Assembly (NCBI GenBank): GCA_963816185.1
Contig: CAWFJJ010000007.1
Span: 1-64,000 of the forward strand
Direction: 5' to 3'
Source of the DNA: Thermoanaerobaculia bacterium
GTDB taxonomy: Bacteria; Acidobacteriota; Thermoanaerobaculia; UBA5066
DNA length: 64,000 nucleotides
A model generated the notes under the pieces. That model was not told the DNA's origin. It was given only the letters and a program-made list of their open reading frames with translations, and ran no database searches. Shown one piece after another: positions 1 through 5,332 of the stretch. A program made the position numbers and the translations under genes. Every line of letters begins with the position of its first letter. Position 1 is the first letter of the stretch.

Positions 1-230
1 TGCGCCTGAACCGCCCCGGAGCACTTTCTGTGCTGAGGGAAGCACACCCAGCGCAGCCAAGGCTCGCCTTTGAGTACTGTGTTGCCATCCACCTCCACTT
101 CGAACTGCCCGTAGGGACCGCCAACCACCTCGACCTCTACGTTCAGCTCGCGCCTCAACCGCGCCGCCACACGGACGGCGTGTAGCCGGGTCACTCAGTA
201 CGCGCACGAACGGATTCGAATCCGAGCCAT
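1..230 (-). CDS. Rdx (SelW/SelT/SelH) family selenoprotein, CxxU; 3' end runs off the window
   Basis: Manual translation from ATG 230 (SD AGGAGG at 235-240): MARIRIRSCAY-UGA(197-195)-VTRLHAVRVAARLRRELNVEVEVVGGPYGQFEVEVDGNTVLKG. The CxxU motif and G.FEV.VDG match the Rdx family. Probable 1-nt indel near 65. Confidence 0.8.
160..194 (-). promoter_or_regulatory. Putative bacterial SECIS hairpin
   Basis: Immediately 3' of the UGA: GCCG(U bulge)CC-[GUGU]-GG-CGGC, with a G-starting apical loop 22 nt after the UGA. An alternative 8-bp stem GCUACACG/CGUGUGGC is also possible. Confidence 0.55.
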
Positions 231-404
231 TCACCCTCCTATAAGAACGCCGACTCCGCCCGGCAACTCCCTTGTGTCCGCCTAACCATATCAACCTCAG
301 CGGCGAGCGTAGCGAGATGGGATGAGAAGGCCGGTCTCCCCGGCGCAGTCGGAAAATTCGCTGCAAGGACATTGCGGGCTCGAGGCCCAGAAGGGAGACC
401 GGCC

Positions 405-1572
405 GTGAGGAAGCGTAGCACCGGGACGAGCGGGAGCGAGAGGACGGCGACGAGGAGTGATGGGACGGCGAGATTGACGTCGGGCAAAGTGGTGAACGTC
501 CTTCCGGCTTTTTGTCCGACGTGGACCGTCGGAACGACCTGGGGGATCGGACGAGCCATTTTTGCGTGCTCGATGAAGATGGGATGGTCGTCGAGCGTGG
601 AAGGGCCCAGACGACTCTGGAAGGGATCCGGAAGCGTTTCGAAGGGCCGGTGGGAATGCGAATCGCGCTGGAGGTGGGAGCGCATTCCCCGTGGGTGAGC
701 CGCCTTCTGAAAGAGCTAGGGCACGAGGTGCTGGTGGCCAACCCCCGAAAGACCCGGCTGATCTACCAGAACCGTGGGAAGCAGGACCGTGTGGATGCCG
801 AGGCCCTGGCCCGGATCGCCCGGCTGGACCCGAAGCTTCTGTACCCCGTGGAGCACCGTCCCGAGAGCATTTCGCACAGGACATGGCCGTCCTGCGCTCG
901 CGCGATGTGCTGGTGAGGACGCGGACGCAGCTCGTCAACCACGTCCGCGGGGCGGTCAAAGCGACGGGACACCGCCTGAGGAAGTGCTCGACCCGGACGT
1001 TCTCCATCCAGGCGGTGGGCGAGATTCCCGAGGAGGTACGCGAAGCGTTGTCGAACGTCCTGACAACGATCGAAGTCGTGTCCAGACGGATCCTGGCGCT
1101 CGACAAGCGCATCTTAGAACTGGGGAAGAAGAAGTACCCGGAGACGGCGTTGCTGAGGCAGGTGGGAGGAGTGGGCCCGATCGTGGCGCTGGCCTACGTC
1201 CTGACGCTGGAGGATCCCGGGTCGATTCCGGAAGAGCCGGGCCGTCGGGGCGTACCTTGGGCTCGTACCTTCGCGAAGTCAGAGCGGTGATTCGGACCCG
1301 CAGCTGCGCATCACGAAGAGGGGGACCACTTCCTGCGCCGGCTTCTGGTTCAGTCGGCGCAGTACGTCCTCGGGCCATTCGGGCCGGACTGCGACCTCAG
1401 ACGATCCGGCCTGGCGCTGTCAGCCCGAGGAGAGCGCAATGCGAAGAAACGGGCGGTCATTGCCATGGCACGAAAACTCGCGGTGTTGCTGCATCGGCTG
1501 TGGCGGACCGCGGAGGTCTACGAGCCGCTACGCAAGGCCCCTGCGCCTCACGGCACGGCCGCAGCGGCCTGA
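405..1572 (+). pseudogene. IS110 recombinase/transposase (DEDD RuvC plus Ser domain), four frameshifts (~535, ~870, ~1220, ~1320)
   Basis: Segments DLGDRTSHFCVLD, IALEVG, KQDRVDAEALAR, GVGPIVA, AYLGLVPSRSQSG, ITK.GDHFLRRLL and AMARKLAVLLHRLW. Catalytic D/E/D/D and S are all present. Frameshifts may be sequencing errors. Confidence 0.9.
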
Positions 1573-1639
1573 CACAGGGCAAAAAAGAAAGGAACCAGCG
1601 AGAGGACGCGTTCAATCGTGGCTATCCCAAATTCGAGTC

Positions 1640-1810
1640 AACGCCCCGTGGGGGCGACTGCGCAGCGGACTCCGGTCCCCACGGACTTCGGCCCGGGGCG
1701 GAACACCGGTAGCGAGATTGCAGCGCCCTCCGGACTAGACCCCCTCATGCACCAGGCCGACAAGACGCGGCCCATACGAGTGCGAATGGAAGCGCGGCGA
1801 CACACTCGAG
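1640..1810 (+). ncRNA. Putative bridge/seek RNA of the IS1111 element (boundaries approximate)
   Basis: Stem 1652-1661/1720-1728 encloses internal-loop strands 1662-1671 and 1710-1719 that match the target flanks, with inner stem CCGGT/ACCGG. A second loop has CCCAT (1771-1775) and ATGGAAG (1786-1792), resembling the element ends. Confidence 0.7.
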
Positions 1811-1885
1811 CCCAGGGATTCCCACCGGCGATTCCGCCCTCTCTTGACAACAACCGGCCTTCTGCGTTGGAGATCCCGCTGCAGG

Positions 1886-2044
1886 GATGAAGTGGACTCC
1901 TCCTTTATGGCGTAAGACGGCATCGAGTGCCAACGTCACCGAGTCGGAGCTGAACCAAAAAGGAGGAGTCCATGGAGAATCCTACGACGATCGCCGTCGA
2001 CCCGCCCCTGCCGCTCGACGGCAAGCTCGAAAACACTCTTCGAC
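1886..2044 (+). mobile_element. Truncated left end of a second IS1111-type element
   Basis: gATGAAG-TGGACTCCTCC end, 14-bp IR 1893-1906/1959-1972 covering the SD, ATG 1972 MENPTTIAVD. The expected continuation SKSVFELAVERQGRV is on the opposite strand (2044-1996). Confidence 0.75.
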
Positions 2045-2193
2045 TTTGATAGCGCTCCTGGGATAAGCAAGAGAAGGCGCCCTTTCGGACGCCCTCCCGA
2101 GACGGGCGGGGCGGGCTGAGGGCCTGATTCGCCTCCCCATCTCATGACGCGCCAAGCCCGTGGCAACAAAAGTAGGGCGAAAACATGCGGAAA

Positions 2194-2386
2194 TCAACCA
2201 TCTCGACGGACCGAAGACGAGGTCGTCGTCGGGACCTTCGCGCCAGTCGAGCGCGTCATCGGCGCGCTGCTGCGCCACCTTGAAGCGGAAGTTGACGAGT
2301 TCCCGGGCCAAGAGAGCCGCGTGCGGGAGCGACCGGGCGGTCTTATGGTGGTCCGCCTGGAAGGGGACCCTGCGTCGAGCAGATCG
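2194..2386 (-). pseudogene. Remnant resembling the C-terminus of a phage terminase large subunit
   Basis: VPFQADHHKTARSLPHAALLARELVNFRFKV...WREGPDDDLVF resembles the C-terminal nuclease DD motif region. No N-terminus is present. Confidence 0.45.
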
Positions 2387-2389
2387 CCT

Positions 2390-2824
2390 TCACTGCACTT
2401 TCCTATCAGCCGCCGGCAGGGTCGGAAACGCAATGGAGTCCTCCGCGATCTTCTTGGCGAGCTCCATCACTGCATCGGGCGAAACACCGTACTCGATCGC
2501 GGCCCGGCGCGCGGCAGCTTCGAGATCGCCCGTGAGATCCATCTCACGACGGTCGCGCCACTCCTTCGGGCGCCGGTTCTTCAGCCAGAAGATCATCGCC
2601 GTCACGTCCTTGTCGACAGTCGCCTTCGTGTAGAGCGACTTGATGACAACCTCGTCCGCCTGTGCGCGGGCGTCATCGATGCGTTCCATCAGACCTGCGT
2701 CGGCCTCGATCCATCGACGAAGAGTCGAGCGGGGGATGCTGAGAATGCGCGCCGCGAGAGCCCAGTCGGCGCCCGCTGCAAATGCGCCCACCACGCGCTC
2801 GGCCTGCGACTCGGTGAGCGTCAT
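2390..2824 (-). CDS. Phage terminase small subunit-like HTH protein
   Basis: HTH (AARILSIPRSTLRRW) and DVTAMIFWLKNRRPKEWRD motif. ATG overlaps the stop of the upstream MTase (ATGA). Confidence 0.6.
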   Translation of the reverse strand: MTLTESQAERVVGAFAAGADWALAARILSIPRSTLRRWIEADAGLMERIDDARAQADEVVIKSLYTKATVDKDVTAMIFWLKNRRPKEWRDRREMDLTGDLEAAARRAAIEYGVSPDAVMELAKKIAEDSIAFPTLPAADRKVQ

Positions 2825-4082
2825 GCCGCGGCCTCGAGGACGGCCTTCTCGCCCGTGAAGCGCTCCCAACGCTGGACGCTACGTCAACGAAGATCGGGTC
2901 GATCTCCATCGCGAAACAGCGGCGGCCAGTCAGTTCCGCAGCGATGATTCCGGTCCCGATCCGCCGAAGGGCTCGTAGAAGAGGCCGCCCCTCGAGGTGG
3001 TTCTCGACGGCCTCGTGTAGAGGACGACCGGCTTCTGGGTCGGGTGGTCGACGCGCTCCTCCTGGCTTCCCGCCATGATCATCTTCGGGCTGCGGCCTTC
3101 CAGATCGTCGTCTGGTCACGCGCGCCGAGAAACGGCGGCGAGCCCTTCTTGCGGGCGTACCAGCAAGGCTCGTGCTGCCAGTGGTAGTGCTGGCGGCAGA
3201 GGACGAGCTGCTCCTTGTCCCAGATGATGTACTGCGAGAGCCGAAAGCCGATCCGCCGCAGGCCCAGTCCGACCTCGATCGTGAACGCGGACGCGTGCCA
3301 GACGTATGCGACGGTCAGGCTCGGCACGAGCTCGAAAGCTTCGCTCCAGTCCGCGCGCGTGTCGCCGCTGATCGAGTGTTCGCGTGGCCCTCTTTCCGCC
3401 TCATGCATGTAGCTCGGCTGCGCGGGGCCCATGCCGTTGAGGCCGGCGCGATCACGCCATTCCATGTCGAGCTCGACGCCGTACGGCGGGTCAGTCAGGA
3501 GCAGGAACGGCTCCTCTCCGTTCAAGAGCCGCGCGACGTCCGTCGCGTTCGTGCTGTCGCCACAGAGGAGCCGGTGCTTTCCGAGGACGTACAGGTCGCC
3601 GGGCTTCGAGACGGGCGTCTTCGGCGGCTCCGGCACGTCGTCGGGATCGACGCCTCGCGCCTCGCGCTTCATTCGAGCGACGAGCTCATCGATCTCGGCG
3701 CTTCCGAAGCCCGTGAGATCCAGAGCACTGGATCCGAGCTCCTCGAGAAGCGCGGCCAGCGCCGGCTCGTCCCACTCGCCCGAGATCCTGTTCAGCGCCA
3801 GGTTGAGCTGCCGCTCGCCGGTCTCGTCGAGGTCGACCCACACGACCGGCAGCGCTTCGATTCCTTCGGCTTCAGCGGCCTTGACGCGCTGGTGGCCGCC
3901 GACGATCCGGCCCGAGCGCCTGTTCGCCACGACGGGCTCCACGGCGCCGAACGTGCGCAAGCTGCGACGTAGCGCAGCAGCTGATCAGGCTCGATCCGAC
4001 GCGGGTTGTAGGGCGCGCCCATGTTGACCAGCTTCGCGACGGGGACGCTTTCGCTTTTTAGGGCATCCACGGCAGAAGCCAT
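2821..4082 (-). pseudogene. ParB-N-domain plus N4/N6 DNA methyltransferase (phage type), several frameshifts
   Basis: APYNPRRI, FGAVEP, IVGGHQR, LNLALNRISGEWD, HRLLCGDST, TDPPYG, HPTQKPV, YEPFGG.G, AMEIDP spread over several frames. Confidence 0.85.
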
Positions 4083-4265
4083 CAGCGAAAGTCTCGGACC
4101 GGGCATCGCGGCGCGCCATGACCCGCTATCTAGGCCTAGCAGAATCTCTCGTCACTGGTGGAAACGCACCGCGGATCGTTCCGCGGGCCTTCAACCTGAG
4201 GACCGTCTCGATCGTAAGGAGGCCTTTTCCGTCACACGCCGGGCGTTCGGTCTTCCGAGGTCGCT

Positions 4266-4729
4266 TTAGCTCGCCGAGGGAAGCCGGAGGCTTGCGGCTG
4301 TCGGCGCCCCATCGCCCTTCGCGGCCGCTTCGAATACGGCCCCGAGCGCCGAGGCGACGCCGCGGGCATCCATCATCTGGATCTCGTGCCGCTGGAGCAG
4401 GGAATGAGCTTGCCATCCCTCATGAGCCCGATCGAAGGCGACGAAGGCGCGTATCCGGCGAAGTACGCGCGCGCACGAGCGGTCGCCTCGACGTCCTGTC
4501 CGGCGAAAACTGTCACGAGCCGCTCCGGCCGCAGCGGGTGCTTGACCGCGAGCACGACGCCGGGACGCGCCTGGCCGGCGGCGCAGCCGCAGACCGAGTT
4601 CACGACGACGAGCGTGAGGCCCTTCTGGTTGACGGCGGCGTCCACTTCGGGCGCCGTGTGAAGCTCGGTGAACCCCGCCCGCGTCAGCTCGTCGCGGAAA
4701 GGCTGGATGCTCTGCGGGTCGTAGGGCAT
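4266..4729 (-). CDS. BrxA/BrxB (YphP/YqiW) bacilliredoxin family, frameshift near 4405
   Basis: MPYDP..FRDEL..AGFTEL..LVVVNSVCGCAAGQARPG...TVFAGQDVEATARAR...PSSPSIGLMRDG, with the CGC motif. SD AGGAG upstream. Confidence 0.88.
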
Positions 4730-4797: not shown

Positions 4798-5332
4798 GTG
4801 CTGTCGCCACAGAGGAGTCGGTGCTTCCCGAGAATGTACAGGTCGCCGCGCTTCGAGACGGGCGTCTTCGGCGGCTCCGGCACGTCGTCGGGATCGACGC
4901 CTCGCGCCTCGCGCTTCATGTCGCGCGATGAGCTCGTCGACCTCGGCGCTCCCGAAACCCGTGAGATCCAGGGACTGGATCCGAGCTCCTCGAGCAGGGC
5001 GGCGAGCGACGGCTCGTCCGACTGGCCCGAGATCCTGTTCAGCGCCAGGTTGAGCTGCTGCTCGCCGGTCTCGTCGAGGTCGACCCACACGACCGGCAGC
5101 GTTTCGATCCCCTCCGCTTCAGCGGCCTTCACGCGCTGATGGCCGCCGACGATCCGGCCGGAGCGCTTGTTCGCCACGACAGGCTCGACCGCGCCGAACG
5201 TGCGCAGACTCTTTGGGAGCGCGAGGAGCTGGTCCGTCGGCAATCCGACGCGGGTTGTAAGGAGCAGCGCATACCGAGCAGCGTCGCGACCGGCACGCTC
5301 TCACTGTTTAGGGACGTCGGGGCGGGAGCCAT
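4798..5332 (-). pseudogene. Second, truncated ParB-MTase copy (ends at LLCGDST)
   Basis: Near-identical peptide to the 5' half of 2821-4082, frameshifted and lacking the catalytic domain. Confidence 0.85.

What the first reader, a model, noticed from the sequence alone, without database searches (positions are those of the whole stretch)
1640..1810. IS1111 bridge/seek RNA whose guides can be read off and match the attC it sits in
Seen: outer stem GGGCG(A)CTGC (1652-1661) / GCAGCGCCC (1720-1728) and inner stem CCGGT/ACCGG enclose an internal loop. GTAGCGAGAT (1709-1718) is identical to the left junction (309-318). GCAGCGGACT (1662-1671) is the reverse complement of AGTCCGCTGC, matching the right flank CCGCTGC (1876-1882) and a putative AG core. 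A second loop has CCCAT (complement of left end ATGGG, 317-321) and ATGGAAG (similar to right end TTGGAG). Established: IS110-family recombinases use a non-coding RNA with target- and donor-binding loops, and some IS1111 elements target attC. Inference: this is an RNA-guided recombinase aimed at the central variable loop of an attC class, i.e. a parasite of cassette arrays, and a candidate programmable tool.
Basis: partly seen in the sequence, partly recalled or inferred. Interest (0 to 1): 0.85.

Follow-up and report, generated by a model that had tools for sequence, protein, structure and literature searches.

The report
Guide RNA of a decayed insertion sequence
The stretch is the guide-RNA gene of a broken copy of an RNA-guided jumping gene that inserts into integron recombination sites, which is a new example of a mechanism already demonstrated in 2024.

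Summary
Window 317-1863 is a decayed copy of an IS1111-type (IS110-family) insertion sequence. It has four frameshifting indels and an altered right tip.

Its 3' non-coding region (about 1650-1800) encodes a seekRNA/bridge RNA. One loop strand (GCAGCGGACT) is complementary to core AG plus the right flank. The other (TAGCG-AG-AT) equals the left flank plus core plus the first two bases of the element.

Two empty sites carry the predicted 16-mer.

Across 52 homologues (46 distinct target signatures) the two loop strands track their own flanks: 0 of 10,000 permutations reached the observed score.

The target is an attC class. In two relatives, arrays of it lie next to an integron integrase gene.

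Corrections:
- The true right end is CATGGA+AG, so ATGGAAG matches it exactly and covaries with it in homologues.
- CCCAT is not conserved and is probably not a guide.
- Only five flank bases plus the core are read on the left.

RNA guides for attC-targeting IS1111 elements were shown experimentally in 2024. This is therefore a new member of a known kind, with a different insertion point (attC centre).

The parts
280..286 (+). R-box GCCTAAC of the attC-like site that holds the element
   Evidence: Sequence. The same box is in the aligned attC class and in the canonical sites found by the R-box and hairpin screen.
298..316 (+). Left half of the attC centre: stem arm CAGCGG (298-303), loop CGAGCG, left target TAGCG (310-314), core AG (315-316)
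   Evidence: Shared with the twin copy and with empty sites. DNA and RNA-library contigs of other attC sites leave the window exactly after 316 and continue with TCCGCTGC (table 7).
317..1863 (+). Body of the IS1111-type element ('A'), 98.6% identical to the twin copy at G000:C24:335416-336979
317..335 (+). Left end: 5-nt extension ATGGG (317-321) and subterminal inverted repeat ATGAGAAGGCCGGT (322-335)
   Evidence: Reverse complement of the twin's right end ACCGGCCTTCTCAT. The first 12 bases of this repeat (ATGAGAAGGCCG; complement CGGCCTTCTCAT) were found, allowing up to 2 mismatches, at both ends of 72 of 93 loci examined.
494..1572 (+). Transposase pseudogene (DEDD_Tnp_IS110 plus Transposase_20), broken by indels at 535, 870-871, 1216 and 1315 relative to the intact twin ORF
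   Evidence: Pfam hits on separate frames. Intact 399-aa ORF in L002. Indel list. The same four indel places appear in DNA contigs of the twin type (table 4).
1652..1728 (+). Target-binding loop: outer stem 1652-1661/1720-1728, inner stem 1672-1676/1705-1709 capped by a hairpin
   Evidence: Folds. The outer stem is kept by compensatory changes in 61 aligned sequences: col 12/127 GC29 AU11 CG11; col 15/124 UA27 CG24.
1662..1671 (+). Right target guide GCAGCGGA plus CT. It is complementary to the top strand of core AG plus TCCGCTGC.
   Evidence: 10/10 at the twin's right junction. Family-wide RT7 match to own flank averages 6.33 against 3.78 for other flanks.
1710..1718 (+). Left target guide TAGCG plus core AG plus AT. 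It is identical to the top strand of the left junction, so it would pair with the bottom strand. AT are the first two bases of the element (a handshake-like extension).
   Evidence: Positions -1 to -5 match the element's own flank in 67-100% of 46 signatures, against 26-34% for other flanks; position -6 matches in 17%.
1737..1748 (+). 5' strand of the second (donor) loop, AGACCCCCTCAT. Candidate right-donor guide for the element's left end; tentative.
   Evidence: It lies directly 5' of the conserved helix GCACC/G-GTGC. In the family its NNCA tetranucleotide changes with the left-end extension, with exceptions that include this clade.
1749..1783 (+). Helix GCACC (1749-1753) / GAGTGC (1778-1783) enclosing the hairpin GGCCG (1755-1759) / CGGCC (1768-1772). 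CCCAT (1771-1775) overlaps the hairpin's 3' strand.
   Evidence: 5 pairs almost invariant in 61 sequences, with 2 double changes at one pair. The hairpin sequence differs but stays self-complementary in homologues.
1786..1792 (+). Left donor guide ATGGA plus AG. It is identical to the true right end (CATGGA) plus core.
   Evidence: Exact match to the twin's right tip. It covaries with right-end variants: AGA with AUAGAAG in L048, L078, L082 and L085; GGC with AUGGCAG in L038; one exception, L063.
1853..1863 (+). Truncated right subterminal inverted repeat ACCGGCCTTCT (11 of 14 nt)
1864..1875 (+). Aberrant 12 nt GCGTTGGAGATC where relatives at the same locus type have CATGGAAGT. It resembles an uninterrupted attC centre.
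   Evidence: Alignment with L023, L037 and the twin. The origin is unknown: real deletion or conversion, or an assembly join.
1876..1882 (+). Right target CCGCTGC, the 3' stem arm of the attC
   Evidence: Contigs with an empty attC join this flank at 1876 (table 7).

Best explanation
Window 317-1875 is a dead copy of an IS1111-type (IS110-family) insertion sequence lodged in the centre of an integron attC site. Its 3' non-coding region (about 1650-1800) is the gene for the element's guide RNA (seekRNA/bridge RNA).

Inferred mechanism, by analogy with ISEc11/ISKpn4 and IS621:
- The element excises as a circle that joins ...CATGGA-AG-ATGGG...
- The DEDD recombinase, bound to the RNA, reads the target with one internal loop.
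- The 5' strand of that loop (GCAGCGGA-CU) pairs with the top strand of AG-TCCGCTGC.
- The 3' strand (UAGCG-AG-AU) pairs with the bottom strand of TAGCG-AG and, after exchange, with the first two bases of the element.
- A second loop holds AUGGA-AG for the right end of the element and probably a short stretch for the left end.
- Strands are exchanged at the AG core, which afterwards stands at both junctions.

What is shown here: the anatomy, the exact junctions, the empty sites, and the covariation of guides with flanks and with end variants.

What is inferred: that the RNA is made, that it binds the recombinase, and the order of strand exchange.

The window copy cannot move by itself, but its RNA loops are identical to those of the intact twin.
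For: 1. IS110-family protein. Pfam DEDD_Tnp_IS110 and Transposase_20 match. NCBIfam NF033542 'IS110 family RNA-guided transposase' scores 216 bits against a cut-off of 140 on the twin's protein.

2. IS1111 layout. There is a 14-bp subterminal inverted repeat. The non-coding region is about 300 nt downstream of the gene against about 177 nt upstream. The protein carries GLVPSRSQSG.

3. Twin copy. Its junctions are GTAGCGAG|ATGGG and CATGGA-AG-TCCGCTGC. The 16-mer GTAGCGAGTCCGCTGC occurs uninterrupted at C25:611925 and C29:452123.

4. Covariation.
- Of 93 loci, 72 have both ends, 62 have both RNA anchors and 52 have usable flanks. These give 46 target signatures.
- Left guide: 4.54 of 6 against own flank, 1.76 against others.
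- Right guide: 6.33 of 7 against own flank, 3.78 against others.
- 0 of 10,000 permutations reach the observed total of 500; the largest was 310.
- L019 and L020 (about 60% identical) have GCCTCCTCC opposite the flank GGAGGAGG.

5. The guide order (top-strand complement 5' of bottom-strand complement, overlapping at the crossover) is the order reported for IS1111 seekRNAs (PMC11187229, section 9).

6. The outer stem is kept by compensatory changes.

7. A second, unrelated-in-sequence IS110-family element ('B', 28% identical) in the same genome inserts elsewhere in the same attC class. Its 3' region has GCTGAGC (complement of its right flank) 26 nt 5' of GATATCGTTT (its left junction).

8. Small contigs from one metatranscriptome library, from relatives, cover 1632-1822. 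This is a weak hint only.
Against: - No direct proof of an RNA. No sigma-70-like promoter or intrinsic terminator was found in 1450-1950. Rfam 15 has no match in 1-4000 except a chance CRISPR-repeat hit at E 5.8. Fold energy is not better than shuffles.
- The RNA-library contigs are from relatives, are few (depth 2-9), and may be DNA carry-over. No circle junction was seen in the four runs laid.
- Some elements sit in flanks that fit their guides poorly. On the left, L018 matches 2 of 5, and L016 and L023 3 of 5. L067, L098 and L100 are poor on one or both sides.
- The left-end (right-donor) guide is not settled for this clade.
- The window copy is broken. Its odd right tip could be an assembly artefact near the contig start.
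Confidence: 0.9

Rival explanations
1. The RNA is a target seeker only, as in the seekRNA model. One loop reads the target, while the element's ends are recognised by the protein through the long subterminal inverted repeats. The ATGGAAG match would then be incidental or structural.
For: The ends and the ATGGAAG region are nearly invariant in the family, so most of the match carries no covariation information. The candidate guide for the left end is short (3-4 nt) and does not fit in this clade. Siddiquee et al. describe short 82-96-nt seekRNAs with target matches only, and suggest that end recognition may differ between families (PMC11187229, sections 6 and 9).
Against: Where the right-end extension differs, the RNA differs in step: AGA in L048, L078, L082 and L085; GGC in L038; one exception, L063. 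Left-end variants ATGAG, ATGAA, GTAGG and ATAGGG go with CUCA, UUCA, CCUA and CCCUA. Durrant et al. report donor-binding nucleotides in multi-loops of IS1111 RNAs (PMC11208160, passages around section 12).
Confidence: 0.25
2. The matches between the non-coding region and the flanks are not guides. They would be leftovers of target DNA carried inside the element (a captured half-site), or chance in G+C-rich DNA.
For: The right-flank match in the window is only 7 nt and is not above chance. The fold is not unusually stable.
Against: The matches sit at the same structural place in homologues with unrelated targets and change with them: 46 signatures, 0 of 10,000 permutations. One strand is a complement and the other an identity, which a captured copy would not give. 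The arrangement equals that of experimentally proven seekRNAs (PMC11187229, section 9).
Confidence: 0.03
3. The window copy is partly an assembly artefact. It would be a repeat collapsed or joined wrongly near the contig start, so its indels and its odd right tip are not biological.
For: The element starts 316 nt from the start of contig C7. The DNA contigs laid show only the twin-type sequence at the four indel places, and they stop at 1863. Bases 1864-1885 look like the centre of an uninterrupted attC.
Against: Contigs drop minor variants, so absence is not informative (notes). The flanks on both sides are unique to this locus. Relatives hold the same element at the same right flank (L023, L037).
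Confidence: 0.2

Closest known systems
seekRNAs of the attC-targeting IS1111 elements ISKpn4, ISPst6 and ISPa25 (Siddiquee et al. 2024, PMC11187229)
   Same: - DEDD transposase, subterminal inverted repeats, and the long non-coding region downstream of the gene.
- An RNA with a top-strand complement 5' of a bottom-strand complement, overlapping at the crossover.
- Integron attC sites as target.
- The transposase lies antisense to the cassette genes. Here. For ISPa21 and ISPst6: PMC3001079, passage read.
   Different: - Those elements insert at one end of the attC; this one inserts in the centre, at the boundary between the loop and the 3' stem arm.
- The best plasmid-borne relatives of the protein are at most 35% identical.
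- The hosts are uncultured Thermoanaerobaculia/Acidobacteriota (record titles).
- The sequences and folds of the published seekRNAs are in supplementary figures that were closed, so no direct RNA comparison was made.
IS621 bridge RNA (IS110 group; Durrant et al. 2024, PMC11208160; Hiraizumi et al. 2024, listed only)
   Same: Two internal loops each read both strands of target or donor around a shared core dinucleotide, and the core is present at both junctions after insertion. The two extra bases after the core in the left guide look like a handshake extension; the term is recalled, not checked in a call.
   Different: The IS621 RNA is encoded upstream of the gene in the left end, and its core is CT (recalled). 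Here the RNA is downstream, the core is AG, the inverted repeats are long, and the donor loop is closed by a helix with a hairpin.
REP-targeting IS1111 elements such as ISPa11
   Same: They share the family and the use of a potentially folded, repeated palindromic target (PMC11187229, section 8).
   Different: The target is REP, not attC.
Group IIC-attC introns
   Same: They are another mobile element that homes to attC sites and lies antisense to the cassette genes (PMC3001079, passage read).
   Different: They are retroelements with a ribozyme and reverse transcriptase, not a DEDD recombinase with a guide RNA.

Membership tests
IS110 family (RNA-guided DEDD transposases) | Protein with an N-terminal DEDD/RuvC-like domain and a C-terminal Transposase_20 domain | tested here: met
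   Pfam PF01548 (E 7.6e-13) and PF02371 (E 1.1e-06) match on the window fragments. NF033542 scores 216 bits against a cut-off of 140 on the twin protein. D15, E60, D98, D101, S263 and G264 are invariant in 9 aligned homologues; their assignment to the DEDD motif is recalled.
IS1111 group | Subterminal inverted repeats of 7-17 bp with short terminal extensions | tested here: met
   ATGAGAAGGCCGGT / ACCGGCCTTCTCAT (14 bp), with extensions ATGGG and GGA in the twin. In the window the right repeat is cut to 11 nt. The feature definition is from PMC11208160 and PMC11187229.
IS1111 group | Longer non-coding region downstream of the transposase gene, holding the RNA | tested here: met
   The stop codon is at 1570-1572 and the right end, by the twin, is about 300 nt later. 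The upstream region is about 177 nt.
IS1111 group | GL-P----S(t)G motif and a protein length of 330-350 aa | tested here: met
   GLVPSRSQSG is present in P0001. The homologous span is about 340-350 aa; the start codon is not fixed.
IS1111 group | Placement inside the IS1111 clade in a transposase tree with reference elements | not tested
IS1111-attC group (ISPa21, ISPst6 and relatives) | Monophyletic with ISPst6/ISPa21 and inserted at the same position near one end of attC | tested here: inconclusive
   The position differs (attC centre). Phylogeny was not tested. The best plasmid matches are at most 35% identical, and none of the 12 rows listed is from Pseudomonas or Klebsiella. The defining paper (PMC2447020) is not held.
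seekRNA / bridge RNA | Loop strands complementary to both strands of the target, changing with the target among relatives | tested here: met
   (46 signatures; 0 of 10,000 permutations).
seekRNA / bridge RNA | The RNA is transcribed, binds the recombinase and is required for transposition | not testable with these tools
   The only data are a few small contigs of relatives in one RNA library over 1632-1822.
Integron attC site | R boxes RYYYAAC...GTTRRRY around an imperfect palindrome with a bulged base, 50-130 bp long | tested here: met
   The class alignment gives GCCTAAC...CAGCGG-loop-CCGCTG(C)...GTTAGGC. The screen returned 7 sites, 5 of them of this class, 57-88 bp. IntegronFinder's attC model was not available.
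Integron attC site | Arrays separating small co-oriented genes next to an integron integrase gene | tested here: met
   In relatives G011 and G008, 6 and 5 sites of the class lie in one orientation. The array's nearest site is 1.6 kb and 0.9 kb from a TIGR02249 hit over the cut-off, and the nearest copy of the element is about 4 kb away. In G000 itself no integrase reaches the cut-off (completeness 94.9%). Single-gene cassettes (OsmC, DUF4395) lie between sites.

The most novel reading that the evidence does not exclude
A lineage of RNA-guided IS1111-type elements is specialised on, and co-evolves with, the attC classes of chromosomal integrons in Thermoanaerobaculia.
- The right guide stays fixed on the conserved 3' stem arm. 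It has the same sequence as the attC's own 5' arm, so it would compete with hairpin formation.
- The left guide drifts (TAGCG, TAACG, TGCCG, CGCCG, ACGCC) after the variable loop.
- A second guide-carrying element uses another position of the same attC.
- The recombinase may also reshuffle cassettes independently of the integron integrase. Two hybrid attC sites in relatives change partner exactly after the ...GCGAG core.
Probability: 0.2. Interest if true: 0.6.

Novelty: new member of a known kind. Interest (0 to 1): 0.33.

Why it matters
The finding adds a well-documented natural example. It is a large environmental clade: 593 of 600 pattern matches in metagenomes encode relatives. The clade has nearly invariant ends and an AG core, but dozens of different targets, each mirrored in two short RNA loop strands.

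Such natural series show which positions are read: here 5 bases plus the core on the left and about 7-8 plus the core on the right. They could help in choosing orthologues for programmable recombination.

For integron biology, the finding shows that cassette arrays of soil and sediment Acidobacteriota are invaded at the attC centre as well as at the ends. It also shows that two different guide-carrying elements can occupy one attC.

It does not change the known mechanism.

Tried and rejected
- **Rfam**: no family matched. Only a CRISPR-DR58 hit on the opposite strand at E 5.8, taken as chance.
- **Thermodynamic stability**: not better than shuffles, so not used as evidence.
- **Promoter and terminator scan** of 1450-1950: none found.
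- **Integron integrase in the window's own genome**: 5 matches, all below the cut-off, and the same model rings in 14 of 14 control genomes at that level. Taken as Xer-type recombinases.
- **Genome-contig scan with the single protein**: only 6 loci, 5 of them already held.
- **First broad attC motif listing**: too loose (1,854 hits of a 10-mer with one mismatch) and discarded. It was replaced by the R-box plus hairpin screen.
- **First donor-loop regex**: it caught the target-loop anchor GCAGC instead of GCACC, so its upper table was discarded. It was redone on alignment columns. The lower table (right end against RNA) was kept.
- **CCCAT (1771-1775) as a guide for the left end**: rejected. 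Close homologues with the same left end have CCCAC, CCTAC or CCATC there, and the bases belong to a hairpin strand.
- **Circle junction or excision products**: none in the four runs laid.
  - Runs with a small share of words were not used for habitat.
  - The 'goes back' joint in X5 has 343 letters between its two sides. It is a neighbouring insertion, not a circle.
- **Junction promoter**: the TTGACA hexamer at 1844-1849 was considered as the -35 of a junction promoter. No -10 partner at a usual spacing was seen by eye, so no claim is made.
- **Papers and supplements**:
  - The Tetu & Holmes 2008 paper is not held, so the exact insertion point of the classical IS1111-attC elements was taken only from passages in PMC11187229 and PMC3001079.
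  - Supplementary figures of PMC11187229 (seekRNA folds of ISKpn4, ISPst6 and ISPa25) are closed and may bear on how similar the RNAs are.
- **Unpublished genomes**: the tallies include G025, and one search also includes G030. No sequence-level claim rests on them, and L022 was not used.

Full report
**What is at the site**

The region lies downstream of a gene whose pieces match DEDD_Tnp_IS110 and Transposase_20, but in different reading frames.

The window's genome holds a second copy, 98.6% identical, at C24:335416-336979. Its transposase frame is open: 399 aa from the first possible start, with 216 bits to NCBIfam NF033542 'IS110 family RNA-guided transposase'.

Compared with this twin, the window copy differs as follows:
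- It has indels at 535, 870-871, 1216 and 1315.
- In the RNA region it differs only at 1650-1651 and 1730, all outside the loop strands.
- After 1863 the two copies diverge.

**Ends, core and target**

The twin's junctions read ...GAGCGTAGCGAG|ATGGGATGAGAAGGCCGGT... and ...ACCGGCCTTCTCATGGA-AG-TCCGCTGCAGCGCGTTGTTAGGC. From these:
- The element has a 14-bp subterminal inverted repeat.
- Its terminal extensions are ATGGG and GGA.
- The dinucleotide AG stands at both junctions.

That 16-mer occurs twice in the genome inside otherwise intact sites (C25:611925, C29:452123). Contigs from other samples match the window's left flank up to 316 and then continue with TCCGCTGC. Others join an empty site to the window's right flank at 1876 (table 7).

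In the window itself the right tip is abnormal. Two relatives with the same right flank (L023, L037) have CATGGAAGT; the window has GCGTTGGAGATC. These 12 bases, together with what follows, resemble the centre of an uninterrupted attC. This could be a real deletion or conversion, or an assembly join near the contig start; I cannot tell which.

**The RNA and its guides**

- The outer stem is 1652-1661/1720-1728 and the inner stem is 1672-1676/1705-1709. Together they enclose an internal loop.
- The 5' strand, GCAGCGGACT, is the reverse complement of AG+TCCGCTGC.
- The 3' strand, TAGCG-AG-AT, equals the left flank, the core and the first two bases of the element.
- This order (top-strand complement first, the two matches overlapping at the crossover) is the one reported for IS1111 seekRNAs (PMC11187229, section 9).
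- Fold energies are no better than shuffles, so the case rests on comparison with relatives.

**Comparison with relatives**

Relatives came from three searches:
- Same-genus and same-order genomes: 12 of 41 genomes had a match at E <= 1e-30, counting the window's own genome G000.
- Public genome contigs.
- Metagenome contigs: 593 of 600 pattern matches encode relatives, and the best 80 were kept.

The 93 loci were filtered in steps:
- 72 have both inverted repeats at IS-like spacing. Almost all have AG at both junctions, with very different flanks.
- 62 of the 72 have both RNA anchors. The 10 dropped were inspected:
  - L036, L037, L048, L064 and L085 agree with the model.
  - L100 does not.
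  - L060, L105 and L107 are unresolved.
  - L096's RNA stretch was cut short, and its left-end match is only partial.
- 52 of the 62 have flanks of at least 8 nt and an AG[AG]T left junction. These give 46 distinct target signatures.

| Measure | Own flank | Other flanks |
|---|---|---|
| Left guide, matches of 6 | 4.54 | 1.76 |
| Right guide, matches of 7 | 6.33 | 3.78 |

No permutation out of 10,000 reached the observed sum of 500; the largest was 310. Kin are not independent, but the signatures include many unrelated targets. For example, GCCTCCTCC stands opposite GGAGGAGG in L019 and L020, and GCTAACCACT opposite AGTGGTTAGG in L044.

Position by position, left-flank bases -1 to -5 are mirrored (67-100%) and -6 is not (17%). 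In the window, therefore, the G and T at 1709-1710 match by position in the stem or by chance, and the guide proper is TAGCG.

Within the close clade:
- The left guide varies (TAGCG, TAACG, TGCCG, CGCCG, ACGCC).
- It fits its flank exactly in the twin (L011), L013, L014 and L024.
- It fits poorly in L018 (2 of 5), L016 and L023 (3 of 5).

The outer stem is maintained by compensatory changes in 61 aligned sequences.

**The second loop**

The alignment shows an almost invariant helix GCACC/G-GTGC (window 1749-1753/1778-1783) around a variable hairpin. Directly 3' of it lies G(A/G)AUGGAAG.

ATGGA+AG is the true right end plus core.
- Where relatives have AGA or GGC instead of GGA at the right tip, the RNA has AUAGAAG or AUGGCAG. 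This holds in L048, L078, L082, L085 and L038.
- L063 is an exception.

CCCAT is not:
- It overlaps the hairpin's 3' strand.
- It reads CCCAC, CCTAC or CCATC in close relatives with the same left end.

The strand directly 5' of the helix (window 1737-1748) is the better candidate for reading the left end.
- In the family its NNCA changes with the left-end extension: ATGGG with CCCA; ATGAG with CUCA in 7 elements; ATGAA with UUCA; GTAGG with CCUA; ATAGGG with CCCUA.
- There are exceptions: L040, L061, L078, L086 and L113.
- In this clade it reads CCCCCUCAU, which fits only GGG.

I regard this assignment as tentative.

**The target is an attC**

- The sites have GCCTAAC...GTTAGGC boxes around an imperfect palindrome with a bulged base. 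They are 57-88 bp long.
- They lie in clusters on C24, C29, C25, C2 and C28.
- In the C24 cluster, single small genes (OsmC, DUF4395) lie between them, on the strand opposite to the transposase.
- The window's genome shows no integron integrase above the cut-off.
- 23 of 31 genomes searched (30 relatives plus the window's own G000, which has none) show one above the cut-off, against 0 of 14 control genomes.
- In G011 and G008, arrays of six and five sites of this very class run between the integrase gene and copies of the element. The nearest site is 1.6 and 0.9 kb from the gene, and the nearest copy about 4 kb.

The crossover lies at the boundary between the central loop and the 3' stem arm. 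The right guide has the same sequence as the attC's own 5' arm.

**A second element in the same genome**

An IS110-family element of about 1.48 kb ('B') is present in six full copies. Its transposase is only 28% identical to the one described above.
- It inserts between GATATC and AAGCTCAGCGG of the same attC class.
- In the twin locus it stands directly beside the first element.
- Its 3' region holds GCTGAGC 26 nt upstream of GATATCGTTT, that is, the complement of its right flank and the identity of its left junction.

This is an independent case of the same logic.

**Expression**

One metatranscriptome library has small contigs of relatives over 1632-1822, and also over parts of the gene and flanks. 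This is a weak hint at most. No promoter-like or terminator-like site was found.

**Comparison with what is known**

- seekRNAs of the attC-targeting ISKpn4, ISPst6 and ISPa25 were shown to co-purify with their transposases and to carry target matches (PMC11187229; abstract and sections 4, 6, 8, 9 and 13 read).
- Bridge RNAs were predicted in 93% of IS1111 elements, in the right end, often with donor nucleotides in a multi-loop (PMC11208160; passages read).
- ISPa21 and ISPst6 lie antisense to cassette transcription (PMC3001079; passage read), as here.

What differs here is the insertion point (centre, not end), the distant protein (at most 35% to plasmid-borne relatives), and the host lineage (records labelled Thermoanaerobaculia/Acidobacteriota).

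**Verdict**

This is a new member of a known kind. The window copy is a fossil; the twin on C24 is the copy to test.

Noticed in passing
L002 (G000:C24:333916-338479), positions about 3060-4520 on the minus strand; also C25:393085, C25:608470, C25:610458, C24:733937, C2:6090: A second IS110-family element ('B', about 1.48 kb, 6 full copies, 404-aa transposase) inserts at CTAACGATATC|...|AAGCTCAGCGG of the same attC class. Its left junction has CG where the empty site and the right junction have CA. Its own 3' RNA region matches its own junctions.
   Followed up: partly
L002 119-1375 (minus strand); copies at C24:740735, C25:611931, C25:606545: An IS481-like element (rve, LZ_Tnp_IS481; 418 aa) sits immediately beyond the attC right box in several arrays. 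The cassette regions of this genome are crowded with three kinds of insertion sequence.
   Followed up: partly
L003 (G000:C2:10057-10190) and L004 (G000:C24:735401-735491): Solo fragments of the first 90-135 nt of the element's left end, still joined to the attC left half. L004 lies directly after a copy of element B.
   Followed up: partly
L134 (G011:C1) near 1106613 and L135 (G008:C13) near 568349: Hybrid attC sites follow the class consensus up to ...AGCGAG (the core) and then continue with unrelated sequence (GGATGTTGAC... / GGATCTTGCT...). They could be footprints of recombination at the element's crossover point, or remnants of another element.
   Followed up: no
window 1876-2000, L023 and L037: The right flank is conserved in three different genomes or samples, while the left flanks differ. 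It comprises CCGCTGCA(A/G)GGATG(A/G)AGTGGACTCCTCC, then an inverted repeat GGACTCCTCCTT...AAGGAGGAGTCC, then ATGGAGAATCC. It lacks a GTTRRRY box, so it may be the last, atypical site of an array.
   Followed up: partly
window 3551-3959 and 4798-5206: A direct duplication with 1,247-bp spacing (88-96% identity) covers two ORFs with a weak ParB_N-like start. The second copy appears disrupted. ORF 2390-2869 (minus strand) has weak HTH hits only.
   Followed up: partly
window 3-194, minus strand: A 64-aa open-ended ORF adjoins the attC left box and is oriented like the cassette genes. It has no Pfam match. A resemblance to Rdx/SelW-type proteins is recalled only.
   Followed up: partly
run X5, joint 1863 to 200: In another sample, a contig has a right end of a related element, then 343 other bases, then sequence like window 200-309. 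This suggests related elements in consecutive attC sites upstream of this cassette.
   Followed up: no
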